64,000 nt of DNA from Anaerolineae bacterium (GTDB lineage: Bacteria; Chloroflexota; Anaerolineae; UBA1429), in the NCBI GenBank assembly GCA_963675785.1, contig OY776562.1:2720001-2784000 (forward strand), read 5' to 3'. The notes below the pieces were generated by a model that had not been told where the DNA came from, did not search any database, and saw only the letters and a program-made list of their open reading frames with translations. The position numbers and the translations under genes were made by a program. Positions 47,123-63,133 of this stretch are shown piece after piece; the stretch's first letter is position 1, and each line of letters begins with the position of its first letter.

Positions 47123-48473
47123 CATGGTCAAAATAGTTCGCGGGGCAAATGAGGCCCGTCGTACACTGCTCAAGCGCCGTGCGCTGGCCGATATGGAAGC
47201 CTCCAGCGATGTACAGCAAGGTACACAAGAGCTCTTTGGCGAGCCTTTGACGCCCGATCAAGTCGTCAGCCGTATTCTTGGTGAAGTGCGTGATAACGGT
47301 GACCAGGCTGTGTTCAAATACACCGAGCTATTGGATCACACCAAGCTTGATAGTCTGCGCGTACCTCAAAAGCGCATTCTACAAGCCTGGGAGAATACCT
47401 CCACCGAACTACAAGAGGCCCTTCAACTCTGTGCAAAGCGCATCAGTTCCTTTTACGAAAAGCAACCTTGGTCATCCTGGCTAGATTGGGATGGTAAGGG
47501 CGGTGCTCTGGGGCAAATGCTTCGCCCGCTGGAGCGTGTGGGCATTTATGCCCCCAATGGCCGCGCGCCTTATCCTTCTTCGGTGCTCATGGGGGCAATA
47601 CCGGCCCGTGTGGCCGGCGTACCCGAAATCGTGTTGGCCACGCCACCACACAATGGTGAATTGAATGACACCATCCTGGCGGCCGCTTATGTGGCCGGCG
47701 TGCAAGAGGTCTATGCCATGGGCGGTGCACAAGCTATTGGCGCTCTGGCTTATGGCACCGAAACAGTAGGCCGCGTCGACAAGATTCTGGGCCCTGGCAA
47801 CATTTTTGTGGTGTTGGCTAAGCGTCAAGTGTTTGGTTTGGTGGATATCGACCAACTGCCTGGCCCCACTGAGACGCTGCTGGTAGCCGATGACTCTGCC
47901 AATCCGCGCTATTGCGCCGCAGATATGTTGGCCCAGGCCGAGCACGATCCCATGGCTTCGGCACTGCTCATCACCCCCTCTGAGGCTTTGGCCCTGGCCG
48001 TTGCCCAAGAGTTGGAAGAACAAGTCAAACTGCTCTCTCGTCAGGAGATCATCCGCGAGTCATTCAGTAGGCAAAGCGGCATTGTCGTTTGCGCTTCCAT
48101 TGACGAGGCCATTGACCTAGCCAATGAATACGCGGCGGAACACCTCTGTCTGATCACCCGTGACCCCTATTCGCAACTCGGTCGCATCAAGAATGCTGGC
48201 GGCGTGTTCCTCGGCGAGCTCTCTTGCGAAGCCCTGGGGGATTATGCCATCGGCCCCAGCCATGTCATGCCCACCGGCCAAACTGCACGATTCTCTTCGC
48301 CGCTCAATGTCTGGGATTTTCTCAAGATCACCAGCGTGTTCGGCATCGACGAGGAGATGGTACGCACCACCGGTCCGGCCGGCATGCGTGTTGCTGAAGA
48401 AGAAGGGCTCACCGCCCACGCTCAGGCCATTCGTGTACGCTATCAAGACATCCTAGGAAAGGACGCTGAATGA
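47115..48473 (+). CDS. hisD: Histidinol dehydrogenase
   Basis: 'GGAQAIGALAYGTE', 'GPGNIFV', 'PGPTE', 'QAEHD', 'GDYAIGPSHVMPT'. Confidence 0.97.
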   Translation: MTSMVKIVRGANEARRTLLKRRALADMEASSDVQQGTQELFGEPLTPDQVVSRILGEVRDNGDQAVFKYTELLDHTKLDSLRVPQKRILQAWENTSTELQEALQLCAKRISSFYEKQPWSSWLDWDGKGGALGQMLRPLERVGIYAPNGRAPYPSSVLMGAIPARVAGVPEIVLATPPHNGELNDTILAAAYVAGVQEVYAMGGAQAIGALAYGTETVGRVDKILGPGNIFVVLAKRQVFGLVDIDQLPGPTETLLVADDSANPRYCAADMLAQAEHDPMASALLITPSEALALAVAQELEEQVKLLSRQEIIRESFSRQSGIVVCASIDEAIDLANEYAAEHLCLITRDPYSQLGRIKNAGGVFLGELSCEALGDYAIGPSHVMPTGQTARFSSPLNVWDFLKITSVFGIDEEMVRTTGPAGMRVAEEEGLTAHAQAIRVRYQDILGKDAE

Positions 48474-49576
48474 AATCCGCCTTTGCGCCACAACAGTTTA
48501 TTGCCTCCCGCGTGGCCAATCTGCAAGAATATGCGCCTGAACCCTTGGAAGCCGTGGCCGAACGTCTGGGTATGCCGCTAGAACAGTTGATCAAGTTGGA
48601 TGCCAACGAGAACCCCTACGGGCCCACCCCCGCGGCGCTCACAGCGCTCAAGGCCTACGACTATTATCATCAGTACCCAGACGCCATCAGCCGCAAGCTG
48701 CGCGCCGCGCTGGCCGATTACGTCGGCGTGCCTATGGAGAACATTCTCGTCGGCAACGGCTCTGATGAGCTCATTGATATGACCGTCCGCTTGTTCAGGC
48801 CAGGGGAAGATGAGCACGGCATTGCCCGTCTTATCACCTGCCCACCGACCTTCGGCATGTATGATATATATGCCTCAGCCAACGACTTGGAGATCATCAC
48901 AATCCCCAGAAAGACCGATTTCTCGCTCGATCTGGAGAGCGTCGAGGCGCTATTTGAGATAGATAGCACACCAGCTATTCTCTTTGTAGCCTCGCCGAAC
49001 AACCCGGACGGCAAACTGCTGCCCGAGAGTGATCTACTGCGCCTATTGGCTCTGCCTGCATTAGTAGTGATCGATGAGGCCTATATCGAATTCGCCGGCA
49101 CGTCATACGCGCCGCTTGTTCTAGAGTATGAAAACTTGATAGTGTTGCGCACCTTTTCCAAGTGGGCCGGCCTGGCCGGGCTCCGCGTAGGCTATGGTGT
49201 CTATCCAGCAGAGCTCATGCCCTCGCTCTGGCGCCAAAAGGCACCCTACAATGTCAATTGCGCCGCGCAGGTGGCCGCACTGGCTACGCTGGAGCACGTC
49301 GATGAAGCACTCAAACGCCTCGACCTCATCAAGACAGAGCGAGATCGCTTGATTGCCGCTCTGAATGCCCTCGACGGCATCAAGGTGCTGCCCAGTGATA
49401 CCAACTTTGTGCTCGTTGAACCGACCAAGCTGTCCATCAATGAAGTTCGGGAGCGTATGGAAGCCCGTGGCATCATGATCCGCTATTACGGCAGTCCAGA
49501 CTTGAAGGATTATGTCCGCGTCTCTGTGGGGACGCCTGAACAAAACGCCTTGCTTATCGCGGCATTTACTGCTTAG
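48470..49576 (+). CDS. hisC: Histidinol-phosphate aminotransferase
   Basis: 'KLDANENPYG', 'GNGSDELI', 'SPNNPDG', 'DEAYIEF', 'RTFSKWAGLAGLRVGY'. Confidence 0.96.
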   Translation: MKSAFAPQQFIASRVANLQEYAPEPLEAVAERLGMPLEQLIKLDANENPYGPTPAALTALKAYDYYHQYPDAISRKLRAALADYVGVPMENILVGNGSDELIDMTVRLFRPGEDEHGIARLITCPPTFGMYDIYASANDLEIITIPRKTDFSLDLESVEALFEIDSTPAILFVASPNNPDGKLLPESDLLRLLALPALVVIDEAYIEFAGTSYAPLVLEYENLIVLRTFSKWAGLAGLRVGYGVYPAELMPSLWRQKAPYNVNCAAQVAALATLEHVDEALKRLDLIKTERDRLIAALNALDGIKVLPSDTNFVLVEPTKLSINEVRERMEARGIMIRYYGSPDLKDYVRVSVGTPEQNALLIAAFTA

Positions 49577-49585
49577 GAGACGCCC

Positions 49586-50179
49586 ATGAGCGAAATCAGA
49601 AGAGTCCTGCTCGAACGCAAAACGCGAGAAACCGATATCAAGCTATCCCTAGATCTGGATGGCACCGGCCAATCTCAAATCGATAGCGGTGTACCCTTTA
49701 TGGACCATATGCTCACCCATGTGGCCATGCACAGCCTTTTTGATCTCGACATAACCTGCCAAGGCGATACCGAGATCGACGATCATCATTCCATCGAGGA
49801 TATAGGCATTGTGCTGGGCACAGCGATCAAAGAGACCCTCGGCTCCAAGGTAGGCATCCAGCGCTATGGCCAAATGCTTATGCCCATGGATGAAGCTCTG
49901 GTGATGGTCGCTCTCGACTTTTCGGGGCGCGGCATGCTGGTTTACGACGTGAACCTGCCTACGCCTCGCGTGGGCACTTTTGATACTGAGCTAACCCGCG
50001 AATTTCTGCAGGCTCTAGCAGTCAATGCAGGCCTGACGCTGCATGTCAGGCTCATTACGGGAATCAACACACATCACATCATCGAAGCCATTTTCAAGGG
50101 CCTAGGACGGGCCCTCGGCAGCGCTGCCGCAAGAGATCCAAGGAGGTCTGGAGTGGCCTCAACTAAAGGAGTCTTGTAG
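49586..50179 (+). CDS. hisB: Imidazoleglycerol-phosphate dehydratase (monofunctional)
   Basis: 'FMDHML', 'DDHHSIED', 'PMDEAL', 'NTHHIIEAIFKG', 'STKGVL'. Confidence 0.97.
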   Translation: MSEIRRVLLERKTRETDIKLSLDLDGTGQSQIDSGVPFMDHMLTHVAMHSLFDLDITCQGDTEIDDHHSIEDIGIVLGTAIKETLGSKVGIQRYGQMLMPMDEALVMVALDFSGRGMLVYDVNLPTPRVGTFDTELTREFLQALAVNAGLTLHVRLITGINTHHIIEAIFKGLGRALGSAAARDPRRSGVASTKGVL

Positions 50180-50180
50180 C

Positions 50181-50798
50181 ATGCTGACGATCGTCGATTA
50201 TGGCGTTGGCAACCTGCGTAACGTCTATATGGCGTTCCAACGCTTGGGCCTGGAGGCAGATGTCACCTCCAAGCCCAAGGATATTCGTAAAGCGCAGGCG
50301 ATTGTACTTCCCGGTGTAGGAGCTTTTGGCGATGCCATGGAACAGATCCGTTCACTGGGCCTTGAAGAAGACCTCGTCGCCGCCGCCAAAGATGACAAAC
50401 CCTTTTTGGGCATCTGTGTAGGACTTCAGGTACTTTTTGAGGTTAGTGAAGAGATGGGCGAGCATCGCGGTCTGGGTATTCTAGGTGGGCGTGTGCGTCG
50501 CTTTGGTAACGAACTGCTTGTGCCGCACATGGGTTGGAACCAAGTGCACCAGCAGAACGAATCATCCATGTGGAACAAGGTACCCAACCATGGCTATGCT
50601 TACTTTGTCCATTCCTATTACTGCGACCCATCGGATAAGGCGGTTGTAGCTGGCACAACGGATTACGGCATATACTATGCTTCGGCCGTTGAGCAGGGCA
50701 ATTTGTTCGCCATCCAGTTCCATCCAGAAAAGTCCCAGGACTTGGGCGCACAGATTTTGCGCAATTTCTGCGTTCGCGCCGACCTGCTGGAGGACTGA
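50181..50798 (+). CDS. hisH: IGP synthase glutamine amidotransferase subunit
   Basis: 'DYGVGNL', 'LPGVGAF', 'GICVGLQ', 'PHMGWN', 'YFVHSY', 'QFHPEKS'. Confidence 0.97.
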   Translation: MLTIVDYGVGNLRNVYMAFQRLGLEADVTSKPKDIRKAQAIVLPGVGAFGDAMEQIRSLGLEEDLVAAAKDDKPFLGICVGLQVLFEVSEEMGEHRGLGILGGRVRRFGNELLVPHMGWNQVHQQNESSMWNKVPNHGYAYFVHSYYCDPSDKAVVAGTTDYGIYYASAVEQGNLFAIQFHPEKSQDLGAQILRNFCVRADLLED

Positions 50799-50799
50799 T

Positions 50800-51537
50800 A
50801 TGATCGTCTATCCGGCAATTGATCTTCGCCAAGGTCGCTGTGTCCGCTTGCGGCAAGGTGACTTTGGCGCAGAAACTGTTTTCAACGACGACCCGGCCAG
50901 CGCCGCAGCCCGCTGGGTTGACGAAGGTGCCGAATGGCTGCATGTGGTAAATCTCGATGGGGCACTGGGCGTCAACGGCGAAAGCAACCTTGCAGCCATC
51001 GAACGTATTCGACGCACTGTGAATATCCCCATTCAAGTTGGCGGAGGCATTCGCTCACTGAAAGACGTGCAGCAACTTTTTAATGCAGGTATCAACCGCA
51101 TCATCTTGGGCACGGTGGCCGCCGATGATCCCGACTTGGTGCAAGAATTTGTAGAGACCTTTGGTCCAGAATCTGTCGTCATCGGTATTGACGCACGAGA
51201 TGGCATTGTCACCACTCATGGCTGGACCCAATCCGCGGGTATCCAGGCCATTGATCTTGCTTTGCGTATGGGGCAGTTAGGCATCAAGCGCCTAATCTAC
51301 ACCGATATCAGCAGAGACGGTATGCTGACCGGCCCCAACGTTCTGGCCACTGTAGAACTGGCAGAACGCACCGGGCTTTCTGTCATCGCCTCGGGCGGCG
51401 TCTCTTCTATCGAGGATGTCCAGATACTTGCTCAGCAACAAGCCGAAGGCATTGACGGCGTCATCATCGGCATGGCTCTCTATCGAGGTCGAATTGACCT
51501 CAGAGAAGCTATCGCATGCGCCCAGGAGGTAAACTAG
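50800..51537 (+). CDS. hisA: ProFAR isomerase
   Basis: 'YPAIDLRQGRCVRL', 'QVGGGIR', 'YTDISRDGML', 'IASGGV'. Confidence 0.97.
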   Translation: MIVYPAIDLRQGRCVRLRQGDFGAETVFNDDPASAAARWVDEGAEWLHVVNLDGALGVNGESNLAAIERIRRTVNIPIQVGGGIRSLKDVQQLFNAGINRIILGTVAADDPDLVQEFVETFGPESVVIGIDARDGIVTTHGWTQSAGIQAIDLALRMGQLGIKRLIYTDISRDGMLTGPNVLATVELAERTGLSVIASGGVSSIEDVQILAQQQAEGIDGVIIGMALYRGRIDLREAIACAQEVN

Positions 51538-52296
51538 ATGTTAGCCAAACGAATCATACCCTGCCTGGATGTCATGAACGGGCGCGTCGTCAAAGGGATT
51601 AATTTTATCGAGCTGCGTGATGCCGGTGACCCGGTAGAACAAGCAGCCATTTATAGCGATGAGCGTGCGGATGAACTGGTCTTTCTCGACATAACTGCCT
51701 CGCACGAACAACGCAACATCGTTGCCAACATGGTTCGCAAGGTGGCCGACACCATCAACATCCCCTTTACTGTGGGCGGCGGATTGCGCACCGTCGATGA
51801 CTTACGGGCCATTCTGCTAGCAGGCGCCGACAAGACCTCCATCAATAGCTCTGCCGTCAAAACACCTGAACTCATCACCGACGGAGCCAAGCGCTTTGGT
51901 TCGCAGTGTATCGTCGTGGCCATCGATTGCCGCCGAGAGACCGATGGCAGCTATCAGGTCTATGTCAACGGCGGCCGCATTCCTACTGGGCTAGAAGCCG
52001 TAGCCTGGGCCAAAGAGGTGGAAAGTCGCGGCGCTGGCGAAATCCTACTCACCTCGATGGACAAAGACGGCACTCAAAACGGCTACGAGTTGGCTATCAC
52101 CCGCCGTATCGCCGATGCCGTACGCATTCCGGTGATTGCTTCGGGCGGGGCCGGCAAGCTGGAGGATTTCAGCGATGTACTCACCGAGGGGCACGCCAGC
52201 GCAGCATTAGCGGCCTCGTTGTTCCATTTCAAACAGCTTTCCGTGGGGCAGGTCAAGGCTTATTTAAGAGAACAGCTCATTCCCGTTCGCAACTAA
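51538..52296 (+). CDS. hisF: IGP synthase cyclase subunit
   Basis: '[12 protein letters not shown]', 'FLDITAS', '[15 protein letters not shown]'. Confidence 0.98.
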
Positions 52297-52312
52297 TGCT
52301 TGGAGTCAATTT

Positions 52313-52669
52313 ATGAAGACAGTGCTGTCTGGTGATCTCGATGTCGATCAACTCAAATGGGATGCCGTCGGCCTCATTCCGGCCATCGTTCAAAATGTTC
52401 ATTCAGGGCTTGTCCTAAGCCTGGCCTATGTCAACAAAGAGTCCTTGAAACTTTGCTTTCAAGAGGGAGAGACCTGGTTCTGGAGTCGGAGCCGCGGCTG
52501 TCTCTGGCACAAAGGAGAGACATCGGGAAATATCCAGACCATCTGCGAAATACGCTATGATTGTGATGCAGACGCCTTGTTGATGCTCGTAGAACCTGCG
52601 GGTCCGGCCTGTCACACAGGGGCCGAGAGCTGCTTTTACCGTACACTTGGCAAACAGGAGACACTGTGA
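52313..52669 (+). CDS. hisI: Phosphoribosyl-AMP cyclohydrolase
   Basis: '[16 protein letters not shown]', 'DCDADALL', '[10 protein letters not shown]'. Confidence 0.96.
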
Positions 52670-53601: not shown

Positions 53602-55671
53602 CTAGAGAATCAGAGAGCCCAGCTGATAAGCAAGTATCCCTGCAACAAGCGTCAGAAGGGTCAAAAAGAGAATGTTGAGCAAAGTCCACTTCCACGAGCC
53701 GGTCTCTTGTTTAATGACGGCCACCGTGGACGCGCAGGGAATAAACAACATCTGTGCTACTAAATAAGCTAGTCCGGCAGCCGTGCTCATATCGGCCCTC
53801 AATGCTTGAGACAACATCGCCGGGTCTTGGCTTACGTTATAGAGCACACTCATCGAAGAAATAGCATTCTCTTTGGCCACAAAGCTAGAAAGTAAGGCCA
53901 CCATTGGACGCCAACCGAGACCCATAAGCCGCCCAATAGGTTCGAGAAGGCGGCCAAACTGTGCCAAATAACTCGTCTCGATGTCCCCGGAGGGCAACGT
54001 CGAGAGAGCCCAAATTACTATCGACATGGCTAGAATCGTTGTGCCCGCCTTTTGCAAAAAGCCGAGTAGCTGGTTCCACACAAAGAGGGCAATCGTGCGC
54101 GCATTAGGCACATGGTAGAGCGGCATCTCCATGATAAAGATGTTGTCTTCATCCTTGAGATAGATCCGTTTGAGCACCATACCCATGAGGGCCAAGACAA
54201 CCAGCGGCAATCCCGTCAACAGCCAGGAAACCAGTGTCGCGTGCTGAGGGAAGAAAACAGGCACCAAAATGGTGAGTACGCCCAGGCGGGCCGCACAGGG
54301 CACCAGCGGAGCCAGCATAATGGTAGCAATGCGGCTGCGCTTATCCTCGATGACACGCGCTCCCATGATAGCGGGCACGTTGCATCCAAAACCCAAAAAG
54401 AGGGGCAGGAAACTCTTGCCGTGCAGACCGATCACGTGCATAAAACGATCGACCACATAGGCCGCGCGAGCCATATAGCCCACATCCTCCAGAATGCCCA
54501 TCACGATAAAAAAGATAAGCAAAATGGGCAAAAAGCTAATCATCAGCCCGGCGCCGCCGATAAGGCCATCAACCACGAGGCCCGACATCCAGGTGGGAGC
54601 AGAGGATAGAACAACAGCAAACCAGCGCGCCAAGCCTCCAACAACGTTTTCAGCCAACCATGATTGGAGAGGGCCACCGATAGAATAAGTAAGGTAAAAA
54701 GTAATCCCCAACACGGCTGCCAAAATGAGCAATCCCCAGAAAGGATGCGTTGCATATCGATCCAGGCGCGAAGTCAGAGTTACCTGCCCCGATCGTGGGC
54801 GTTTGAGAGCAGCTCGTGTCATTCGGCTGATCCACTCGTAACGACCGCTGGCTACGGCGAGCATGGCGTCTTCGTGGGCCTGCAAAATACTCTGCACCGG
54901 CTCCCATGAATCTGCCGGTAGTTGTAGCCGCATCATATCAATAACTTCACGGTCGCCCTCAAAAAGCTTGAGCGCCACCCAGTCCTGCGGATAAGGATCG
55001 GGAACATAGCCTTTGATGAGGGATTCGAGTTCTGCCAGAACTTGACGGTGATCCTCACGCACCTCGGGACGGTTTGGCTCCCCGGAAGGGCCGTGCAGGG
55101 CCACATCAATAGCCGCATCAATGAGTTCGTGGACTCCTATGCCTTTGGTAGCAATCATGGGAATAACAGGAACTCCGATGGCAGCTGCCAGCACTTCAGG
55201 ATTGACCTCAAAGCCCTCTTGCTTGGCAACGTCGATCATATTCAAACCGATGACAATAGGGGCAGGCAAAGCAAGTAATTCAGCAACGAGGTAGAGATTA
55301 CGCTCGATGCAGGCGGCGTTAATGACCACCATGACCACATCGGGGCGCTCGTGAATGATGTAATCACGCGTTACCGTCTCTTCGGGTGAAGAACAGGTGA
55401 GGCTATAAGCGCCAGGTAAATCGATGAGGTCGAGCACCAACCCATGATGATCCAAGGTTCCTGTACGTTGTTCGACTGTTTTTCCGGGCCAATTGCCCAC
55501 ATGTTGGTTGAGACCGGTGAGAATATTGAATACCGTACTCTTACCAACATTTGGCTGGCCGGCGAGGGCAATAGATAAGCGCTTGCGAGGCTCTCTCGGA
55601 GAAGATTGCTCCAGAGAATGCTCGGGGGGTCTATGATGTGGATGTGCTCGAAGGTGGTTATGCATGTGCAC
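53602..55671 (-). CDS. feoB: Ferrous iron transporter FeoB with His-rich N-terminal extension
   Basis: 'GQPNVGKST', 'VGNWPGKTVE', 'DLPGAYSL', 'NMID', 'GFGCNVPA', 'FIMEMPLY'. Start is GTG 55671 or ATG 55665. Confidence 0.95.
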   Translation of the reverse strand: MHMHNHLRAHPHHRPPEHSLEQSSPREPRKRLSIALAGQPNVGKSTVFNILTGLNQHVGNWPGKTVEQRTGTLDHHGLVLDLIDLPGAYSLTCSSPEETVTRDYIIHERPDVVMVVINAACIERNLYLVAELLALPAPIVIGLNMIDVAKQEGFEVNPEVLAAAIGVPVIPMIATKGIGVHELIDAAIDVALHGPSGEPNRPEVREDHRQVLAELESLIKGYVPDPYPQDWVALKLFEGDREVIDMMRLQLPADSWEPVQSILQAHEDAMLAVASGRYEWISRMTRAALKRPRSGQVTLTSRLDRYATHPFWGLLILAAVLGITFYLTYSIGGPLQSWLAENVVGGLARWFAVVLSSAPTWMSGLVVDGLIGGAGLMISFLPILLIFFIVMGILEDVGYMARAAYVVDRFMHVIGLHGKSFLPLFLGFGCNVPAIMGARVIEDKRSRIATIMLAPLVPCAARLGVLTILVPVFFPQHATLVSWLLTGLPLVVLALMGMVLKRIYLKDEDNIFIMEMPLYHVPNARTIALFVWNQLLGFLQKAGTTILAMSIVIWALSTLPSGDIETSYLAQFGRLLEPIGRLMGLGWRPMVALLSSFVAKENAISSMSVLYNVSQDPAMLSQALRADMSTAAGLAYLVAQMLFIPCASTVAVIKQETGSWKWTLLNILFLTLLTLVAGILAYQLGSLIL

Positions 55672-55684
55672 CTTCGTGGCCTTT

Positions 55685-55924
55685 CTAAGCCGATTTGCGG
55701 ATAATAACACGCTCGGCCTGGCCTCGACCGAGCGCAACTTGAGTATCAAGAACGCGCACAATGACAGGGCTGGCCCCATGGTTGCGCACCATAATAACGC
55801 GCGCACCAGGGGTAAAACCAAGAGCAGCCAGACGCGCTACAAAACGTCGGCCGCCCTTCAAGGCAACAACCAAGCCACTATCATCGGGTAACAGATTAAG
55901 AAGCGTTAATTCAATTGCGTCCAA
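55685..55924 (-). CDS. feoA: FeoA family protein
   Basis: 'RLAALGFTPGARV...PVIVRVLDTQVALGRGQAERV'; TTG start inferred. Confidence 0.9.
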   Translation of the reverse strand: MDAIELTLLNLLPDDSGLVVALKGGRRFVARLAALGFTPGARVIMVRNHGASPVIVRVLDTQVALGRGQAERVIIRKSA

Positions 55925-56096: not shown

Positions 56097-58331
56097 GTGA
56101 GAAAAGCACTCAGTCTGGTTCTAGTCTGTCTGCTGGCTTGCGTTTTATTGACATCTTGTGGTGGAGCCGAGGTGCCCGTAAGCGGCAAAATCATCAACGC
56201 TTTGGATAATACACCCGTCGTCGGAGCCGAGATTGTGATCAAAGGTTCCTCTGTTCAAACCGATTCTGATGGTGCCTTTGAACTGGTGGTTCGTGGCAAT
56301 CACGAATATCAGCTCACGGTATCAGCCGTCGGCTATGAATTTGCCCAAGTGAGTCTCGAGGTAAAAGATCAAGCCATCGCGTTGGATACCATCTCACTCG
56401 AACCGCGCATGTTGCAAGGCACTGTGCAAGATAGCGCAACAAGCTCACCCATCGCAGGCGCCCTCCTATCTCTGGGAGACGAATCGACGATCTCTAATGA
56501 AGCTGGCTTTTTCGAATTCCTGTCAGCCTCTCAAGAGGGTATCACTATCAACGCCTCTGGGTTTACAGCAGAGGTCATCAATCGCGAGACCATTGACGCC
56601 CTCTATGATGAAAATGGACTACAAAAAGAAACTGTCATTTTTGAACTGTCTCCTCGCACTGTTTCCATCACCCTAAAAGACGAACAGGGTGCAGCAGTCT
56701 CTGGCGCAGAGGTAACCGCCGGCAACCAAACCGTTCTTTCTGGTGTCGACGGCACTTGCGAAATCAAGTATATCGATCCGAATACGCCCATCGTCATAAC
56801 GGCAGATGGCTTGCGAACTATCGAGACGCAGAGCGGAGATAAGACTTTTCTCGATTTATCGATGGATACTTGGCAAGCACAGGTCATTGTTGTAGATGCG
56901 GCCAGCGGCGAGCCCCTTGAGGCGACCCTCGTTCTCGATGGCAACGAGATGAGCGTGCCCGTAGAGGGACTCAGCTTGGCTATTGAGCCCGGGACCTTGG
57001 TTACCGCATCCTGTGATCGCTATACTTCTGCAGAGACAACTTTTTCAGGCGAGCCCGTTTGGGAGATTAGCCTGAGCTCGGTTGATCTGACTGGCAGCCT
57101 TACCGATGGAGAAACCGGCGAGCCCATTGTTGGCGCATTGGTGCAGGTTTACACCGGCGATGAAGAAAATGACCCCGTGATGCAGCGCACCGCTGATGAT
57201 GGTTCGTTTACTGTGCAGAACGTGCCCACAGCCAATGAGGTTTACATCAAAGCGCCGGGGTATCGCACAGTTTCGGTGCCAGTGACCGATACCACCGAGT
57301 TGGATCTCAATCTGGAGCCCTTTGAGGCCCAGGCCATCTACGTGCCCTTTGCCCTGCTCACCGTGCCCGAAGTGATCACCGATTTGCTTGATATGGTAGA
57401 CCGTACGGCTCTAAACAGTATCGTGGTGGATGTACGCGGCGATTATTCCTACATCGCTTGGCAAAGCGACAATCCCATTGCCCAGCAAGTTGATAACTAT
57501 TACGAAGGCGTTATGGACCTCAACGATCTCGTAGAAGAATGTCACGAGCGGGGTATCTATGTCATTGCCCGTATGGTCATGTTCAAGGATGACATTGTGG
57601 CCACTACCATCACCGACTGGGCTATCAAAGCGCCTGCAGATGAAGGCGGCCTCTATTACGATTATGAGGGCCTCACATGGTTGGATCCTTATCTCCCTGA
57701 AGTAGTTGAGTATGAGGCCGATCTCATGTCCGAGGTTCTAGAGTTCGGTTTTGACGAGATACAGATGGACTATTTACGCTTTCCTTCGGATGGCCGTGCT
57801 TTTAGCCTGATCTACTCGCAAGAAAGTGAATACGAAACACGTATTGCCGCCATCGAGAGCTTTACGGCAGCCATGTATGATGTCGTCGAACCTTCGCGAG
57901 CTTTTCTCTCAGCAGACGTCTTTGGCATGACCCCCTGGACGGATGTTGATTTTGATATGGGTATCGGCCAGCGTGTTGAGGATATTGCCCCTCACGTCGA
58001 CTATATCTCACCCATGCTGTACCCGACGACCTTTGCCAATGGTTCGATCGGCTATGCTGATCCATCTCTTTATCCATATGAGGTGGTGTACTATAGCGTG
58101 GTAGAAATGCAGACCAGGACCTTGACCAAAGTGCGCCCATGGTTGCAGCATTATTCGATCTATGACTATGTGTACGGCACCAACGAACTGCTCGAGGAAC
58201 GCAAAGGCGCTGAAGATGGCGGCAGTTGCGGGTGGATGTTCTGGAATTCGGGCGCCCTGTATAACGAAACCGTCATGGGTTATGACCCTTATTCAGCCTA
58301 TCCCAATTTGCCCAACCCACCTACAGAATAA
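56097..58331 (+). CDS. Lipoprotein with repeated carboxypeptidase-regulatory-like domains and a C-terminal DUF4015 putative glycoside hydrolase
   Basis: Lipobox 'LLTSC'; repeated 'PIAGA/PIVGA...TDSDG.F' modules; 'NSIVVDVRGD', 'IARMVMFKD', 'GFDEIQMDYLRFP', 'SPMLYP', 'VRPWLQ'. Confidence 0.85.
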   Translation: MRKALSLVLVCLLACVLLTSCGGAEVPVSGKIINALDNTPVVGAEIVIKGSSVQTDSDGAFELVVRGNHEYQLTVSAVGYEFAQVSLEVKDQAIALDTISLEPRMLQGTVQDSATSSPIAGALLSLGDESTISNEAGFFEFLSASQEGITINASGFTAEVINRETIDALYDENGLQKETVIFELSPRTVSITLKDEQGAAVSGAEVTAGNQTVLSGVDGTCEIKYIDPNTPIVITADGLRTIETQSGDKTFLDLSMDTWQAQVIVVDAASGEPLEATLVLDGNEMSVPVEGLSLAIEPGTLVTASCDRYTSAETTFSGEPVWEISLSSVDLTGSLTDGETGEPIVGALVQVYTGDEENDPVMQRTADDGSFTVQNVPTANEVYIKAPGYRTVSVPVTDTTELDLNLEPFEAQAIYVPFALLTVPEVITDLLDMVDRTALNSIVVDVRGDYSYIAWQSDNPIAQQVDNYYEGVMDLNDLVEECHERGIYVIARMVMFKDDIVATTITDWAIKAPADEGGLYYDYEGLTWLDPYLPEVVEYEADLMSEVLEFGFDEIQMDYLRFPSDGRAFSLIYSQESEYETRIAAIESFTAAMYDVVEPSRAFLSADVFGMTPWTDVDFDMGIGQRVEDIAPHVDYISPMLYPTTFANGSIGYADPSLYPYEVVYYSVVEMQTRTLTKVRPWLQHYSIYDYVYGTNELLEERKGAEDGGSCGWMFWNSGALYNETVMGYDPYSAYPNLPNPPTE

Positions 58332-58341: not shown

Positions 58342-58385
58342 AAAAAAAACGGTCAGGTCGAATAAACGACCTGACCGTTTTCTTT
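58342..58385. terminator. Bidirectional intrinsic terminator
   Basis: AAAACGGTCAGGTCG-AATAAA-CGACCTGACCGTTTT. Confidence 0.85.
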
Positions 58386-58388: not shown

Positions 58389-59507
58389 CTAGATGACAGA
58401 ATTGCCGTAAATCTTCATCACAGTACGATGAATGGGCTCATTTCCCTCTAGCGCCAACTCTGGAGTTGGGGTTGAGGCCTCATCGGGCTTGTCACTAATG
58501 CCAAAAACCAGCACTCCCTGCTCTTTGAGGTGCAGCGCCAAACTAGCCACCTCGCCCGTAATGACAATTTCACTATTGAGGACCTCTTTTTCAGAAGCAT
58601 CCCCGCCTAGCACGTTCATGCGGGCTACTGTTTCCAGATACTCGCCGCGTCGAAACTCTTTGAATGGCGTTGGGTCGTTTTGGGCAATGCCTTCTTGAAC
58701 CTGCTCATGCGCAGCCAACAGGGGCAAAGACATGGCGCTGCGCCGCCCATCACACAGAGCAACCACATCGTCAATGGAGGCTATTGCCCCCTCGCCGATC
58801 CGTTTCCACAATTCGTCGACAGGGATGACATCCCCCGCCACCATGAGGCATACATAGGCCAAGTAATCCTGATTGTCGGCCGTTACATGGTGATTTGTCG
58901 GTTGATTCAGAGGATTGTAAACCGCCAGAAAGGCTTGCTTATCAAAGGTATCGCCAAGCGCAGCACGCATGGTTCGTTCCACCGCAGAAACGCGGGCACC
59001 ATCGATAACCTGATCATTACGGCCACGTGCGCCTAGTGAGGTTTTGTCGAGGTCGATGAGTAAAGCAGTACGCTCATCGCAAGGCACATTTTCTTCAAGC
59101 AAACTCTGCCAAAAATCTGCTAGCATCCCCCAACGGTTGGCCACCATGAGCACATCTTTTATCTCACAAATAGCAGGTTCCTTGAGCCGATCTGCACCGA
59201 TAAAGCCACGCACTGGCCAGTAACTACCCACGTTCCGCGCAGCACCGCCATCATTGAGCATGGTATCACCAATGAACAAAATATTCCGCAACGGAGCCAA
59301 GCCACGCTGTTCCTGCGCTATCCTCAAAAAGTGAGCAAGTGTGCGTGCATACTCGGGTGATGTCTTGCGGGGTACCGCGCTGTCCAATAATCCAATCTGC
59401 TGCCAGCTGGCACTCAACCCCGGGATATCCTGTGTTTGCGGTTCGAGATTACGATAGACAACATAATCCTCAAAAAAGTCGGCCAATCTCCCTGTGCACC
59501 AAACCAC
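58389..59507 (-). CDS. Hypothetical protein; predicted circularly permuted HAD-superfamily phosphatase/phosphotransferase
   Basis: GTG start overlaps the asd stop (TAGTG). HAD-like motifs in order III (K48), IV (FIGDTMLND), I (LIDLDKT), II (VFGISDKP). Confidence 0.7.
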   Translation of the reverse strand: MVWCTGRLADFFEDYVVYRNLEPQTQDIPGLSASWQQIGLLDSAVPRKTSPEYARTLAHFLRIAQEQRGLAPLRNILFIGDTMLNDGGAARNVGSYWPVRGFIGADRLKEPAICEIKDVLMVANRWGMLADFWQSLLEENVPCDERTALLIDLDKTSLGARGRNDQVIDGARVSAVERTMRAALGDTFDKQAFLAVYNPLNQPTNHHVTADNQDYLAYVCLMVAGDVIPVDELWKRIGEGAIASIDDVVALCDGRRSAMSLPLLAAHEQVQEGIAQNDPTPFKEFRRGEYLETVARMNVLGGDASEKEVLNSEIVITGEVASLALHLKEQGVLVFGISDKPDEASTPTPELALEGNEPIHRTVMKIYGNSVI

Positions 59508-60562
59508 TAGATCAACCCCTTTGCCACCATGATTTCGGCATTCAGGATCGAACCACCAGCGGCACCTCGGATGGTATTATGCGATAGCACGACGAACTTG
59601 TAATCCAGTAACTCACAAGGGCGAACGCGGCCCACAGATATCGCCATGCCTGCGCCTTGATTCCGGTCAAGATAAGGTTGTGGACGGTCGTTTTCCTCGC
59701 GCACAATAATGGTTGGATCAACCGCCGAAGGACACCCCAGTGCAGCAGGAATGCTCTTAAACTCTTTAAAGGCGGCAACGACCTCTGCAAGTTCTGCCTT
59801 GCGCCCCAACGCCACCGAAACCACTTCCATGTGGCCATCGCGAGTGGCTACCCGATTACATGAAGGGCTAACGCGAATTTGGGCCATATCGATACATCCG
59901 GCAGTCTCATTCAAAGATCCGAGGAGTTTGCAGGGCTCTGAGACTAATTTATCCTCTTCATTGCCGATGTAGGGAACAACATTATCCAGGCTATCCAGAG
60001 CAGGCACGCCCGGATACCCCGCCCCTGAAAGGGCCTGCATGGTAGTGACAAAGACCTTTTCCACACCAAAAGCATCGTGCAAGGGCTTGAGAGCCAGGGT
60101 CATGCCCACTGTGGAACAATTGGGGTCGGTTACAATAAAGCCTTTGTCCCAACCACGATTCTTGCGTTGTACCGCAAGCAAACCAAGATGATCAGAGTTC
60201 ACTTCGGGAATCAAGAGGGGGACGTCCACATCCATTCTGTGGGTACTGGCATTGCTCAAAACACCGTATCCGGCCGCAGCAAAAGCCTCCTCGATGGGCC
60301 CCGCACTGCTGGATGGCAGCGCAGAGAATACCAGGTCGCAATCGAGGGGCGGTTCGCAGGGCTGTACAATCAAGTTGCGCACACTGGCCGGGCAATCCGC
60401 CGATACACGCCATACACAGGCCTCGGCATAAGGTTTACCCACCGATCGCTCAGAGGCGGCCACAGCAGTGATCTCAAACCACGGGTTTTTGTCCAGCAAT
60501 TCAATAAAGCGCTGACCTACAGCTCCTGTAGCGCCAAGTATGCCGACTCGCCTGGGTTCCAT
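59507..60562 (-). CDS. asd: Aspartate-semialdehyde dehydrogenase (archaeal/eukaryotic-like type)
   Basis: 'GILGATGAVGQRF', 'AASERSVGK', 'PNCST', 'TMQALSGAGYPG', 'SHNTIRGAAGG'. Confidence 0.96.
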   Translation of the reverse strand: MEPRRVGILGATGAVGQRFIELLDKNPWFEITAVAASERSVGKPYAEACVWRVSADCPASVRNLIVQPCEPPLDCDLVFSALPSSSAGPIEEAFAAAGYGVLSNASTHRMDVDVPLLIPEVNSDHLGLLAVQRKNRGWDKGFIVTDPNCSTVGMTLALKPLHDAFGVEKVFVTTMQALSGAGYPGVPALDSLDNVVPYIGNEEDKLVSEPCKLLGSLNETAGCIDMAQIRVSPSCNRVATRDGHMEVVSVALGRKAELAEVVAAFKEFKSIPAALGCPSAVDPTIIVREENDRPQPYLDRNQGAGMAISVGRVRPCELLDYKFVVLSHNTIRGAAGGSILNAEIMVAKGLI

Positions 60563-60579
60563 ATCTCGTCTCCTCGAGT

Positions 60580-61983
60580 TCACTCTTTATTCATCTCAAA
60601 TTGATGATGGATAGCACGAACGGCCTCATCAACTTGATCCTGCTTGATGACCAGGGACATGTTATAGTCCGAACCGCCCTGAGCGATAGAGAGAATATTG
60701 ATCTCGCTATCGGCCAAAGCCGCAAAAACGCGCGCTGCTATGCCCGGCACACGCCGCATACCAGCCCCAACAATGGCCACAATGGCAGCACCTTCCGTCT
60801 TTTTCACGCTGGCCACATCGTTGCGCAGCATATCAAAACGGAGCTCTTGTTCCACCGAGTTTTGCGCAGCCAAAGCGTCAGAGGCGGGCACCACAATGCA
60901 GATGCCCTGTTCAGAAGAGGATTGAGTAAACATCAAAGCGCTTGCCCCACTGCGCGCCAAAGCGCTAAATACCCTGCCAGCCACACCTGGCACACCTTGC
61001 ATGCCTCGTCCTGCTATTGTTACCAGAGAAAGATTCCTGATAGCCGTAATACCCTTGACGAGCGGTTCATCAGTGACTTCAGCACAGATCAAAGTGCCTG
61101 GGTGCTCTGACTTGAAAGAGTTGAGCACACGCACAGGAATATCTTGATCAACCACAGGTTGTATTGTTTTGGGATGGAGAACTTTGGCGCCAAAGAAGGA
61201 AAGGTCGGCTGCCTCGCCATAAGAGATGGTTTTAAGGGTGCGGGCGCCGGGGACAATACGCGGATCGGCCGTCATCACGCCATCAACATCTGTCCAAACC
61301 CAAACCTCTTCGGCATCCAGACAGCTGCCCAAAATGGTGGCGCTGTAATCACTGCCGCCTCGGCCTAGCGTCGTAGGAACGCCGTCTTCCGTCGCACCGA
61401 TAAAACCTGTAACAACAGGAACAATCCCTTGAGATACCAATTCTCGCAAATGCTTGGCTCGTTCACGAGTCTGATCGAGCAAGGGTTTGGCATCGCCAAA
61501 ATTACTGCTCGTCACGATGATCTCGGTTGCCTCGATGGATTGCGCAGCAATCCCCATGGACATCATTGTAGCCGCAGTGATACGGGCCGAGATACGCTCG
61601 CCTAAACCAGAAACAACATCCAGGCCACGCGGAGTGAGTTCGCCAAGTGTGTAAATGCTCTGGCAAAGTGTTTCGAGCCAGTCCAGCAGGGTGTTGATTT
61701 CGCTATTGAGAGGGCGGGAGATGGCTTCTTCGATCTGACAGTCCATCACGGCTTGCTCATGGCGCTGTTGCAGCTCGTCGCGCAAGAGCCCGTATGATCT
61801 GCGATCGCCATCCGCAGCAGTTCGTGCCGCCCGCACCAGCATGTCTGTTACACCGCTCATTGCCGAAACAACGACAACCGGCGGCACCCCTTTTTCGTCC
61901 TGAACATGTTGGGCGATGCGCGCAACATTGCGGATGCGCTCACCACTACCAACGGAGGTTCCTCCAAACTTCATGACAATCAT
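60580..61983 (-). CDS. lysC: Aspartate kinase (monofunctional, two ACT domains)
   Basis: 'VMKFGGTSV', 'VVSAMSGVTD', 'TTLGRGGSDYSA', 'WTDVDGVMTADPR', 'GAKVLHP'. Confidence 0.95.
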   Translation of the reverse strand: MIVMKFGGTSVGSGERIRNVARIAQHVQDEKGVPPVVVVSAMSGVTDMLVRAARTAADGDRRSYGLLRDELQQRHEQAVMDCQIEEAISRPLNSEINTLLDWLETLCQSIYTLGELTPRGLDVVSGLGERISARITAATMMSMGIAAQSIEATEIIVTSSNFGDAKPLLDQTRERAKHLRELVSQGIVPVVTGFIGATEDGVPTTLGRGGSDYSATILGSCLDAEEVWVWTDVDGVMTADPRIVPGARTLKTISYGEAADLSFFGAKVLHPKTIQPVVDQDIPVRVLNSFKSEHPGTLICAEVTDEPLVKGITAIRNLSLVTIAGRGMQGVPGVAGRVFSALARSGASALMFTQSSSEQGICIVVPASDALAAQNSVEQELRFDMLRNDVASVKKTEGAAIVAIVGAGMRRVPGIAARVFAALADSEINILSIAQGGSDYNMSLVIKQDQVDEAVRAIHHQFEMNKE

Positions 61984-62118: not shown

Positions 62119-62147
62119 ATTATAAATGAAGAACCCCAATAGCTCAA
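62119..62147 (-). promoter_or_regulatory. Promoter of the lysC-asd operon
   Basis: TTGAGC-17 nt-TATAAT. Confidence 0.65.
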
Positions 62148-62158: not shown

Positions 62159-63133
62159 TTAGGGATTCAGTATCTGATCAAAAGCATATAGAGCAGGGAT
62201 TCCGCCTGTATGCCAAAACAACACCGCCTCGGCAGGGCCGATCTTGCCGGTGCGGATCAAATCGATTAGCCCGCCGAGCGCTCGCCCTGTGTAAACCGGA
62301 TCGACGAGCAGTCCTTCTGTACGGGCCATCAATTTTATCGCCTCACATTCTAGCGAGCCCGGGTGGGCATAGCCCTCACCAAGATAGCTATCGCAGATAG
62401 TAAGGTGCGCATCATCAAACGAACCACCGTAATCCACTGCCGAGGCAACCAGCGGAGCGAGAGCCAGCACGATACGGCGTAAATCGTCGGCAGGCTTGTC
62501 CACGCTGATGCCGAGAATTTCTCCCTCGTAGCCAGATAACCAGGCCCCTACCAACAATCCTGCCTGAGTGCCGCCCGAGCTGGAAGCAAAGATAATGCGA
62601 TCAAACTGCACATGCATGGCCCCCGCTTGAGCCATCATCTCTTCCATCGCATATACATAGCCAGCAGCGCCTATGGGGCTAGAACCCCCATAGGGAATAA
62701 CATAAGGCGTACGGCCAACAGCCGTTTCGGTGCGCACCACATCATCCACCACCTGCGCCACCGAGAGCGAACCCGTCCAGCGAATTTGCGCCCCAAAGAG
62801 TTGATCCAGCCAAATATTGCCTTTTTTTAGGCTGGGGCATAAACCAGAGAGTACTAACACACAGCGCAGCCCGACACGTGCTGCGGCAGCAGCTGTTTGG
62901 CGAGCGTGATTGGACTGCACAGCACCAGAGGTGACAAGTGTATCTGCACCTTGCGCGAGAGCATCCGCCACGAGGTATTCCAGTTTGCGCACCTTGTTAC
63001 CACCGCCACCCAAGCCCGTCAGGTCGTCACGCTTGATAAACAGGCGCGGACCGCCGAGGTTACCCTCAAGGCGAGACAATTCGTAAAGCGGTGTAGGCAA
63101 TTGAGCCAGAGAATAGCGATTCAGGGTCGACAT
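62159..63133 (-). CDS. D-cysteine desulfhydrase family PLP enzyme
   Basis: 'KRDDLTG', 'GGNKVRKLEY', 'QSNHARQ', 'SSGGTQAG', 'DPVYTG' (Thr rather than the ACC-deaminase Glu), 'WHTGG'. Confidence 0.9.
   Translation of the reverse strand: MSTLNRYSLAQLPTPLYELSRLEGNLGGPRLFIKRDDLTGLGGGGNKVRKLEYLVADALAQGADTLVTSGAVQSNHARQTAAAAARVGLRCVLVLSGLCPSLKKGNIWLDQLFGAQIRWTGSLSVAQVVDDVVRTETAVGRTPYVIPYGGSSPIGAAGYVYAMEEMMAQAGAMHVQFDRIIFASSSGGTQAGLLVGAWLSGYEGEILGISVDKPADDLRRIVLALAPLVASAVDYGGSFDDAHLTICDSYLGEGYAHPGSLECEAIKLMARTEGLLVDPVYTGRALGGLIDLIRTGKIGPAEAVLFWHTGGIPALYAFDQILNP

What the first reader, a model, noticed from the sequence alone, without database searches (positions are those of the whole stretch)
58389..59507. 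Circularly permuted HAD-fold enzyme translationally coupled to lysC-asd
Seen: all four HAD motifs are recognisable but rotated. The N-terminal part resembles a HAD C-terminus: PRK48TSPEY (motif III), ILFIG-D81-TMLN-D86-GGAARNVG (motif IV) and a terminal 'VANRWGMLADFW' segment. Then comes ALLI-D152-L-D154-KT (motif I), a ~160-aa region where a cap would sit, and 'GEVASLALHLKEQGVLVFGI-S338-DKP' (motif II). Known: the canonical order is I-II-III-IV, so linear HMMs would probably leave this as hypothetical. The start overlaps the asd stop by 1 nt. Inference: a possibly undescribed phosphatase/phosphotransferase family in aspartate-family amino acid metabolism, e.g. a ThrH-like phosphoserine:homoserine phosphotransferase, or the missing histidinol-phosphate phosphatase.
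Basis: partly seen in the sequence, partly recalled or inferred. Interest (0 to 1): 0.8.

Follow-up and report, generated by a model that had tools for sequence, protein, structure and literature searches.

The report
Rearranged HAD enzyme in threonine operon
A conserved, unnamed Chloroflexota gene at the end of the lysC-asd operon encodes a HAD-type phosphoryl-transfer enzyme whose catalytic motifs are in rotated order, and it is a good candidate for the homoserine kinase these threonine operons lack.

Summary
The ORF at 58389-59507 (-) encodes 372 aa, and its GTG start overlaps the asd stop by 1 nt. All four HAD motifs are present in the order III-IV-I-II and are near-invariant in 269 relatives. 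AlphaFold2 gives pLDDT 97.5, with a strand/helix order that matches a HAD core cut between S3 and the motif-III helix, plus a ~150-aa helical cap. Coevolution pairs strand S4 with S1 in register. Weak HAD profile matches fall in permuted order. Of the six orders of the three core segments, only the canonical one aligns well to an E. coli HAD-IA profile (probability 78-80% against 7-9% for the native order). Foldseek found no HAD, and the model's coordinates could not be inspected.

Context is strong. asd lies directly upstream in 60 of 73 loci, lysC in 47 of 66, and threonine synthase is in the cluster in 27 of 81. Seven aspartokinase-X fusion clusters exist. A standard thrB was found in 0 of 81 loci.

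The best reading is a circularly permuted HAD phosphotransferase that makes O-phosphohomoserine, so it works like ThrH but belongs to a different family. The function is inferred, not shown. The histidinol-phosphatase idea has no support.

The parts
58389..59507 (-). Gene X: 372-aa circularly permuted HAD-like protein (stop codon included)
   Evidence: ORF and translation. At least 1999 relatives of about 372 aa. AF2 pLDDT 97.5, pTM 0.93.
59250..59372 (-). Residues 46-86: motif III (P-R-K48) and motif IV (G80-D81-T-M-L-N-D86) at the end of strand 75-80 (S4)
   Evidence: Conservation 266-268 of 269. PF13242 hit at residues 60-94. D81 aligns to D172 of the HAD-IA profile.
59040..59069 (-). Residues 147-156: strand S1 and motif I (D152-L-D154-K-T156)
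   Evidence: Strand 147-152. D152 and D154 each 268 of 269. They align to D9 and D11 of the HAD-IA profile.
58572..59015 (-). Residues 165-312: all-helical cap of nine helices, inserted at the C1 position between motifs I and II. It carries near-invariant T209, D211, N212, Q213, D214, T280, K283, F285, R286, E289 and T293
   Evidence: DSSP and conservation. No structural or sequence relative was found.
58473..58511 (-). Residues 333-345: strand S2 and motif II (S338), followed by the invariant D-K-P-D-E-A
   Evidence: Strand 333-337. S/T at 338 in 267 of 269. S338 aligns to S116 of the HAD-IA profile.
58407..58418 (-). Residues 364-367: last strand (S3). It coevolves with the N-terminal strand (residue 6 with 366), so the new termini lie side by side
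   Evidence: DCA pair 6-366 has z 7.8 and rank 7 of 67161, above the shuffle maximum.
59516..59522 (-). SD-like AAAGGGG, 8 nt upstream of the GTG and inside the 3' end of asd
   Evidence: Read from the sequence. No test of function was made.
59507..60583 (-). asd, aspartate-semialdehyde dehydrogenase. Its stop overlaps the X start by 1 nt
   Evidence: TIGR00978 430 bits and NF006416 468 bits, both above cut-off. Pfam.
60580..61983 (-). lysC, aspartate kinase with two ACT domains. The likely start is M27 of the longest ORF, which runs to 62061
   Evidence: Pfam and NCBIfam. Homologues begin at residue 27 of the ORF.
62119..62147 (-). Promoter-like site TTGAGC-17-TATAAT (10 of 12) upstream of lysC
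   Evidence: Consensus scan only. It found 5 sites against 4.6 expected, so on its own this is no evidence.
58346..58381 (.). 15-bp hairpin between the convergent gene X and the DUF4015 gene, with A/T runs on both sides: a likely bidirectional terminator that ends the lysC-asd-X unit
   Evidence: Terminator scan, + strand hit. The T-run on the minus strand was read.

Best explanation
Gene X encodes a Mg2+-dependent phosphoaspartyl-transfer enzyme of the HAD superfamily whose chain is circularly permuted.

Topology. The chain starts at the motif-III lysine (K48). It then runs through S4 with motif IV (D81, D86), S5, a hairpin and a crossover helix. Next come S1 with motif I (D152 nucleophile, D154 acid/base), a 150-aa helical cap, S2 with motif II (S338), and finally S3. 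The new termini sit where canonical HADs carry C2 caps.

Operon. X is made as the last gene of a lysC-asd-X operon, translationally coupled to asd.

Role. Its most likely role is the one step missing from these threonine clusters: transfer of a phosphoryl group to L-homoserine to give O-phosphohomoserine for threonine synthase. It would then replace ThrB non-orthologously, working like ThrH without belonging to the ThrH/SerB family.

Shown: the motifs, their order and their conservation; the predicted topology; the synteny; the fusions.

Inferred: the residue roles (by analogy with HAD enzymes, recalled), the substrate, the donor and the physiological role.
For: Fold and permutation
- AF2 on 81 sequences gives pLDDT 97.5 and pTM 0.93. 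The elements run E75-80, H83-93, E99-104, hairpin, H126-138, E147-152, nine cap helices, H318-329, E333-337, H349-353, E364-367.
- Mean-field DCA on 269 sequences (Meff 192) ranks pairs 74-146 and 79-151 as 2nd and 4th of 67161 (z 12.0 and 10.1), and pair 6-366 as 7th. All three exceed the maximum of a column-shuffled control, 1.33, as do 17 pairs in all.
- The A2 profile against PDB sequences finds a HAD hydrolase, 2hcf_A, as best hit (E 0.075). It matches in three pieces in swapped order: query 150-175 to target 4-29, 311-337 to 85-111, and 62-99 to 157-193.
- Pfam on the family: PF13242 in 8 of 81 members and PF00702 in 4 of 81.
  - P0201 reaches the PF00702 cut-off (26.6 against 26.4 bits), with residues 145-353 on profile positions 3-142 of 191.
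  - P0250 matches HAD_2 positions 139-171 with residues 54-86, and PF00702 positions 44-127 with residues 247-327.
- hhalign against a profile of six E. coli HAD-IA paralogues aligns residues 148-158 to template 5-15 (E 0.011) and residues 23-128 to template 119-218 (E 0.026).
- With caps removed, order B-C-A is the best of 6: local probability 78.1%, E 1.8e-5, 121 columns; global 80.3%, E 1.6e-6. The native order A-B-C gives 9.2% and 7.1%.
- In that alignment D152 pairs with D9, D154 with D11, S338 with S116 and D81 with D172. K48 falls one position from K147.
- In the ESM Atlas the nearest named clusters are all HAD, at score 0.77, which is a lead only.

Context (80 loci plus the window)
- asd lies directly upstream on the same strand in 60 of 73 loci that have at least 1.2 kb upstream.
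- lysC lies upstream in 47 of 66.
- thrC (TIGR00260 above cut-off) is present in 27 of 81, on the same strand in 26, arranged as thrC-asd-X or lysC-asd-X-thrC.
- hom lies between lysC and asd in 4.
- The asd stop and the X start overlap in 35 of 61 loci.
- An E. coli-type thrB was found in 0 of 81. The only GHMP kinase among 133 neighbouring ORFs of 16 loci is a mevalonate kinase.
- Seven 90%-identity clusters of aspartokinase-ACT-X fusions of 841-896 aa exist.

Literature (passages read)
- thrB is still missing in 16 of 208 prototrophs.
- ThrH, as cited there, is a phosphoserine:homoserine phosphotransferase that can substitute for ThrB. That ThrH is a HAD enzyme is recalled; the passages do not say so (PMC13759103 and bioRxiv 10.1101/2024.10.14.618325).
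Against: Fold
- Foldseek found no HAD. There were 0 matches at E <= 1e-3 in PDB and in BFVD, and none of the top 50 is a HAD.
- The window protein itself is below every curated HAD cut-off. Only 1 of 81 members reaches one.
- hhalign against a SerB profile is weak (E 0.044 and 0.16).
- Rotating the whole protein did not raise the score.
- The segment test used boundaries that I chose knowing the motifs, and its best probability is only about 80%.
- DCA support for the S1-S2 pairing (z 3.9-4.9) and the S4-S5 pairing (z about 3-5) is weak, and it is absent for S2-S3 (z 1.4). The shuffle control does not preserve phylogeny.

Function
- No assay was done.
- Only 8 kb on each side was visible, so absence of thrB or HomK from these genomes is not shown.
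- hom is in the cluster in only 4 of 81 loci.
- 8 of 81 loci show no aspartate-family neighbour. Three of them (L043, L055, L069) have long flanks.
- The fusions are about 80% identical to each other, so they count as one evolutionary event.
- The phosphoryl donor is unknown.
Confidence: 0.5

Rival explanations
1. X is a plain phosphatase of a phospho-amino acid. It could be a phosphoserine phosphatase (SerB replacement), or a bifunctional ThrH-like enzyme whose main job is serine synthesis.
For: - HAD catalytic motifs with a DxD of the phosphatase type.
- serB is missing in 16 of 208 prototrophs (PMC13759103, passage).
- The cap is rich in invariant Arg and Lys, which suits a small anionic amino-acid phosphate.
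- One X-JAB fusion exists, P0140. JAB proteins act in sulfur-carrier pathways that use O-phospho-amino acids (recalled).
Against: - Neighbours are lysC, asd, hom and thrC. No serA or serC appears among the recurring neighbour clusters or among the 133 scanned ORFs.
- Fusion to aspartokinase makes no sense for serine synthesis.
Confidence: 0.15
2. X is a hydrolase that controls or repairs the pathway. It might be a beta-aspartyl-phosphate or O-phosphohomoserine phosphatase acting as a safety valve, or a regulatory partner of aspartokinase.
For: - Tight coupling to lysC and asd, and the fusions to aspartokinase.
- Many HAD enzymes are metabolite-repair phosphatases (recalled).
Against: - An aspartyl-phosphatase fused to the kinase that makes aspartyl phosphate would be a futile cycle.
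- Near-invariance of about 50 residues and an operon position like that of a biosynthetic enzyme speak for a main-line step.
Confidence: 0.12
3. X is the missing histidinol-phosphate phosphatase (HisN).
For: - The his operon in the window (45198-52666) has no phosphatase gene, and its hisB is dehydratase only.
- hisN is the commonest remaining gap, in 42 of 208 prototrophs (PMC13759103, passage).
Against: - X is 6 kb away on the other strand, in another operon.
- No his gene is among the recurring neighbours in the 81 loci, whereas aspartate-family genes are present in 73 of 81.
Confidence: 0.03
4. The HAD resemblance is convergent or spurious. X would then have another Rossmann-like or novel fold with a different chemistry.
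For: - Foldseek gives only insignificant generic alpha/beta hits.
- No curated model reaches its threshold for the window protein.
Against: - Four motifs with the right residues sit at the right strand ends and are near-invariant.
- All weak hits are to HAD families and fall in one consistent permuted register.
Confidence: 0.06

Closest known systems
ThrH, the phosphoserine:homoserine phosphotransferase of Pseudomonas aeruginosa (HAD subfamily IB). Known to me from the citation in PMC13759103 (passage) and from recall.
   Same: - Same catalytic kit of the HAD superfamily.
- Proposed same product, O-phosphohomoserine made without a GHMP kinase.
- It can stand in for ThrB.
   Different: - ThrH has the canonical motif order and a small cap; X is permuted and has a 150-aa nine-helix cap.
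- There is no detectable similarity to a SerB-type profile beyond motif I.
- X sits in lysC-asd and thrC operons and is fused to aspartokinase in one lineage.
- The ThrH sequence itself was not at hand.
Canonical HAD-IA enzymes (beta-phosphoglucomutase YcjU, Gph, YigB, YqaB, HxpB, YjjG of E. coli; Pfam PF00702, PF13419, PF13242)
   Same: - Motifs I, II and IV align residue for residue, and motif III within one position, once the segments are re-ordered.
- The cap is inserted at the C1 position.
   Different: - The linear order is III-IV-I-II.
- The cap is about twice as long and unrelated.
- There is an extra N-terminal strand next to S3 and a hairpin plus crossover helix that join the old termini.
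HomK / ThrB2 (BT2402, TIGR02535): homoserine phosphotransferase related to cofactor-independent phosphoglycerate mutase (PMC13759103 and PMC7311316, passages)
   Same: - A non-orthologous replacement of ThrB found through threonine-gene neighbourhoods.
- It probably uses a donor other than ATP.
   Different: - Unrelated fold.
- HomK is experimentally confirmed by complementation; X is untested.
ThrB, the GHMP-family homoserine kinase
   Same: The proposed metabolic step and the operon position between the aspartokinase genes and thrC.
   Different: - No sequence relation: no GHMP domain in X.
- ThrB uses ATP directly; X has no recognisable nucleotide-binding domain.
ThrA-type aspartokinase-homoserine dehydrogenase fusions
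   Same: Aspartokinase with ACT domains, fused at its C-terminus to a later enzyme of the same pathway. IMG even auto-names the AK-X fusions 'aspartokinase / homoserine dehydrogenase'.
   Different: The C-terminal domain is X, not a homoserine dehydrogenase.

Membership tests
HAD superfamily | Motif I, DxDx(T/V), at the C-terminal end of a hydrophobic strand (S1) | tested here: met
   A-L-L-I-D152-L-D154-K-T156 follows strand 147-152. D152 and D154 are each present in 268 of 269 sequences. They align to D9 and D11 of the HAD-IA profile.
HAD superfamily | Motif II, S/T at the end of strand S2 | tested here: met
   S338 follows strand 333-337. S in 253 and T in 14 of 269. It aligns to S116 of YcjU.
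HAD superfamily | Motif III, Lys/Arg one helix upstream of S4 | tested here: met
   K48 (266 of 269) lies before helix 51-67 and strand 75-80. In the profile alignment it falls one position from K147.
HAD superfamily | Motif IV, acidic (G)DxxxD or DD at the end of S4 | tested here: met
   G80-D81-T-M-L-N-D86. D81 in 267 and D86 in 268 of 269. PF13242 hit. D81 aligns to D172.
HAD superfamily | Linear order of motifs I-II-III-IV | tested here: not met
   The order is III-IV-I-II in every full-length relative listed. This is the circular permutation. No relative in canonical order was found among the partial hits, which are fragments or chimeras.
HAD superfamily | Rossmannoid three-layer core with sheet order S5-S4-S1-S2-S3 | tested here: inconclusive
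   For: alternating strand/helix order, S4 parallel to S1 in register by DCA, and the crossover helix coupling to S4 (pairs 75-141 and 77-136). Against or neutral: S1-S2 and S4-S5 pairings are weak, S2-S3 is absent, Foldseek finds no HAD, and no coordinates were available.
HAD superfamily | Squiggle and flap directly after S1 | not testable with these tools
   This needs coordinates. The invariant G159-A-R161-G-R163-N-D lies where these elements would be.
HAD superfamily | Score above the curated cut-off of a HAD model | tested here: inconclusive
   The window protein scores 15.7 bits against a cut-off of 22. 1 of 81 members reaches PF00702 (26.6 against 26.4). The re-ordered core gives hhalign probability 78-80%.
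ThrH / SerB (HAD-IB phosphoserine phosphatase-like) | Profile similarity to SerB/ThrH and a small four-helix C1 cap | tested here: not met
   hhalign against E. coli SerB and a 32-sequence SerB profile gives only motif I (E 0.077 and 0.044) and a weak cap-to-motif-II stretch (E 0.16). The cap has nine helices and about 150 aa. ThrH itself was not available.
ThrH / SerB (HAD-IB phosphoserine phosphatase-like) | Phosphoserine-dependent phosphorylation of homoserine | not testable with these tools
   This needs an enzyme assay.
Threonine-biosynthesis operon member (functional class) | Conserved same-strand clustering with lysC, asd, hom and thrC | tested here: met
   asd in 60 of 73, lysC in 47 of 66, thrC in 27 of 81, hom in 4 of 81. 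Stop/start overlap with asd in 35 of 61.
Threonine-biosynthesis operon member (functional class) | Genomes with X lack thrB and HomK | not testable with these tools
   Only about 8 kb on each side was held. Within that, thrB was found in 0 of 81 loci.
ThrB (GHMP kinase) | GHMP kinase N- and C-terminal domains | tested here: not met
   No such Pfam or NCBIfam hit for X, even at E <= 1.

The most novel reading that the evidence does not exclude
X is an aspartyl-phosphate:homoserine phosphotransferase.

Proposed relay. Aspartokinase makes beta-aspartyl phosphate. X takes the phosphoryl group onto D152 and passes it to homoserine. The path is ATP -> Asp-P -> enzyme-Asp-P -> O-phosphohomoserine, with aspartate acting catalytically.

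Consequences. One kinase would drive both phosphorylations of the threonine pathway. This would explain the AK-X fusions, the coupled lysC-asd-X operons, and the absence of any nucleotide-binding domain in X. It would be a new reaction, carried out by the first natural circularly permuted HAD enzyme.
Probability: 0.15. Interest if true: 0.9.

Novelty: new variant of a known kind. Interest (0 to 1): 0.72.

Why it matters
Homoserine kinase is one of four steps that account for most of the remaining unexplained gaps in amino-acid biosynthesis of prototrophic microbes. thrB is missing in 16 of 208 genomes (PMC13759103, passage read).

This family offers a concrete candidate for Chloroflexota that can be tested by complementation.
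- It has at least 1999 relatives among the 8000 candidates scored.
- It has 303 representatives at 50% identity.

It would also be a natural circular permutation in one of the largest enzyme superfamilies. My two literature searches found no description of one (two papers checked by passage, the rest by listing only). This explains why curated linear models miss the family and why it is filed as 'hypothetical'.

Annotation pipelines currently mislabel the aspartokinase fusions as aspartokinase/homoserine dehydrogenase.

Tried and rejected
- Foldseek of the model against PDB and BFVD found nothing significant and no HAD. Order-dependent alignment and the foreign cap may explain this, but it is not confirmation.
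- Sequence search of X against PDB found nothing.
- A SerB-based profile: I wrongly asked search for homologous proteins for 'shorter' proteins. I got mostly N-truncated fragments, so the profile was poor and hhalign weak.
- hmmsearch with that profile over the ORFs of the loci gave 0 hits.
- Rotating the whole alignment in steps of 12 residues gave no gain in hhalign score. The long cap blocks joining of the pieces.
- A search for relatives in canonical order among partial or two-stretch hits found 9 sequences, all fragments, frameshifted calls or chimeras.
- N-terminal extensions of the 600-816-aa forms (P0211, P0220) match no family and no PDB entry.
- AF2 of the natural AK-X fusion P0392 gave pLDDT 93.5 but pTM 0.70 with a low-confidence linker. 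It does not settle whether there is a fixed interface.
The job never ran, so there is no result.
I therefore could not see which genomes lack thrB in the GapMind tables; these may bear on the claim.
- The 401-aa gene upstream of thrC-asd-X in Caldilineae-type loci is a Pro/Thr-rich secreted protein and is not part of the pathway.
- The GHMP kinase next to X in L055 is a mevalonate kinase, not thrB.
Full report
OBSERVATION. The ORF at 58389..59507 (minus strand) encodes 372 aa from a GTG start. The DNA reads TAGTG, so the asd stop and the X start share base 59507. An SD-like AAAGGGG lies 8 nt upstream. Upstream on the same strand lie asd (TIGR00978, 430 bits) and an aspartate kinase with two ACT domains. 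A 15-bp hairpin at 58346-58381 separates X from a convergent gene. Curated models leave X unnamed. Pfam gives only PF13242 at 15.7 bits against a cut-off of 22, NCBIfam gives nothing, and PDB sequences give nothing.

FAMILY. The word-indexed search found 1999 relatives among 8000 scored candidates. The 120 listed are nearly all 367-386 aa (two are shorter), 52-63% identical, and called 'hypothetical' where named. The exhaustive search found 303 representatives at 50% identity, 106 of them with E <= 1e-30. In the species-representative genomes, at least 474 of 599 pattern-matching stretches encode a relative. Of the 80 loci kept, 77 record titles name Chloroflexota lineages and 3 name others (Acetothermia, Thermotogaceae, Ca. 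Syntrophoarchaeum). I aligned 81 of the roughly 270 sequences in hand as A2, and 269 for the conservation and coevolution analyses. The motif residues are near-invariant: K48 266, D81 267, D86 268, D152 268, D154 268, and S338 as S 253 plus T 14, all of 269. About 40 further positions, many of them in the cap, are equally conserved.

FOLD. AlphaFold2 on A2 gives pLDDT 97.5 and pTM 0.93. The elements in order are:
- strand 4-6;
- helix 51-67, preceded by K48;
- strand 75-80, followed by D81;
- helix 83-93;
- strand 99-104;
- hairpin 114-123;
- helix 126-138;
- strand 147-152, ending in D152;
- nine helices, 165-312;
- helix 318-329;
- strand 333-337, followed by S338;
- helix 349-353;
- strand 364-367.

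Read from residue 147 round to residue 142, this is the canonical HAD order: S1, C1 cap, S2, S3, motif-III helix, S4, S5. I could not obtain coordinates, so I tested the topology by coevolution. In mean-field DCA (Meff 192), pairs 74-146 and 79-151 rank 2nd and 4th of 67161 (z 12.0 and 10.1). This puts S4 parallel to S1 and in register, which places D81 beside D152-D154. Pair 6-366 ranks 7th, which puts the two termini side by side. A column-shuffled control peaks at 1.33, and 17 real pairs exceed it, these three included. Support for the S1-S2 and S4-S5 pairings is weak, and there is none for S2-S3.

PERMUTATION-AWARE SEQUENCE TESTS.
- The A2 profile's best PDB hit is a HAD hydrolase, 2hcf_A (E 0.075), matched in three pieces in swapped order.
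- Of the 81 members, 8 hit PF13242 and 4 hit PF00702.
- P0201 reaches the PF00702 cut-off with residues 145-353 on profile positions 3-142. P0250 matches the C-terminal end of HAD_2 with its N-terminus, and the middle of PF00702 with its C-terminal half.
- Against a profile of six E. coli HAD-IA paralogues, residues 148-158 align to template 5-15 and residues 23-128 to template 119-218.
- Rotating the whole alignment gave no gain, because the cap blocks joining of the pieces.
- With the caps removed, I compared all six orders of three segments: A (40-142), B (143-166) and C (311-372). B-C-A is best: local probability 78.1%, E 1.8e-5, 121 columns; global probability 80.3%, E 1.6e-6. The native order gives 9.2% and 7.1%, and the other four orders reach at most 42%.
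- In that alignment D152, D154, S338 and D81 pair with D9, D11, S116 and D172 of YcjU, and K48 falls one position from K147.

Against all this, Foldseek finds no HAD in PDB or BFVD, and a SerB profile gives only weak matches.

CONTEXT. I examined 81 loci (80 fetched plus the window).
- asd lies directly upstream on the same strand in 60 of 73 loci with enough flank.
- lysC lies upstream in 47 of 66.
- Threonine synthase is present in 27 of 81, on the same strand in 26, arranged as thrC-asd-X or lysC-asd-X-thrC. Its identity is confirmed by TIGR00260 above cut-off.
- hom lies between lysC and asd in 4 loci.
- proC lies there in 6.
- The asd stop and the X start overlap in 35 of 61 loci.
- No E. 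coli-type thrB was found (0 of 81). The one GHMP kinase nearby is a mevalonate kinase.
- 8 loci show no aspartate-family neighbour, and 3 of these have long flanks.

Seven fusion clusters carry aspartokinase, ACT domains and X in one chain of 841-896 aa. They are about 80% identical to one another, so they count as one event. An AF2 model of one fusion has pTM 0.70 and does not fix an interface.

MECHANISM. By analogy with HAD enzymes (recalled), D152 would be phosphorylated and D154 would act as acid/base. S338 and K48 would hold the phosphate, and D81 and D86 the Mg2+. The cap would select a small charged substrate through its invariant R172, K283, R286, E289 and the D211-N-Q-D214 stretch, together with R161 and R163 in the loop just after motif I. 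lysC, asd, hom and thrC all co-occur with X, and thrB is the only step of Asp -> Thr never seen beside it. I therefore rank homoserine phosphorylation first (0.5 for the whole statement; about 0.9 for the permuted-HAD part). The donor is unknown. Phosphoserine would be the ThrH-like choice. The bold alternative is aspartyl phosphate (probability 0.15).

LITERATURE.
- GapMind 2026 (PMC13759103 and its preprint; passages read) reports thrB still missing in 16 of 208 prototrophs. It describes HomK, and ThrH as a phosphoserine:homoserine phosphotransferase that can substitute for ThrB. It does not mention Chloroflexota or this family in the passages searched.
- GapMind 2020 (PMC7311316; passages read) agrees with this picture.
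- Searches for a circularly permuted HAD gave no description of one. I checked two papers by passage and the rest by listing only.
- Searches on Chloroflexi or Anaerolinea with homoserine kinase, on ThrH, on non-orthologous replacement, on thrB, Chloroflexus and GapMind and on aspartyl phosphate as donor found nothing on this family (listings only).

VERDICT. X is a new variant of a known kind, and it comes with a directly testable role in a long-standing pathway gap.

Noticed in passing
window 38493-39224 (-): One ORF carries a ribosomal protein S6 domain (residues ~48-140) and an S18 domain (residues ~172-236). They are joined by an acidic, His-rich linker with no stop between them, so this looks like an S6-S18 fusion.
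   Followed up: no
window 45198-52666 (+): A his operon (hisZ, G, D, C, B, H, A, F, I). Its hisB is dehydratase only, and the cluster holds no histidinol-phosphate phosphatase gene.
   Followed up: partly
window 56097-58331 (+): A 744-aa protein with four CarboxypepD_reg repeats and a DUF4015 putative glycosyl-hydrolase domain. It is convergent with X. The same gene is the downstream neighbour in 19 of 81 loci.
   Followed up: partly
window 62159-63133 (-): A PLP enzyme of the D-cysteine desulfhydrase / ACC-deaminase family, just upstream of lysC. Its best model is CuyA at 351.8 bits, below the 450 cut-off. No link to X was seen in other loci.
   Followed up: no
L046, L051, L057, L059, L070, L073 (between lysC and asd): A proC gene sits between lysC and asd in 6 of 81 loci; in the two checked (L073, L057) it scores above the TIGR00112 cut-off. 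This is an odd place for a proline gene.
   Followed up: partly
L026:4341-5546 and 6 further loci: A 401-aa Pro/Thr-rich protein with a signal-like N-terminus and a C-terminal anchor. It belongs to no family and lies directly upstream of thrC-asd-X in Caldilineae/Ardenticatenia-type loci.
   Followed up: partly
P0140 (528 aa): X carries a C-terminal Prok-JAB (MPN) domain. JAB proteins serve sulfur-carrier pathways that use O-phospho-amino acids (recalled), which may be a second functional hint.
   Followed up: no
P0211, P0221, P0223, P0226, P0248 (~600 aa) and P0220 (816 aa): Divergent X relatives (29-33% identical) with N-terminal extensions of 235-440 aa that match no Pfam family or PDB entry. 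P0211 and P0220, the two whose sequences I read, keep the core motifs.
   Followed up: partly
window 53602-55821 (-): The longest feoB ORF has about 80 residues upstream of the FeoB model's start, so the true start is probably internal.
   Followed up: no
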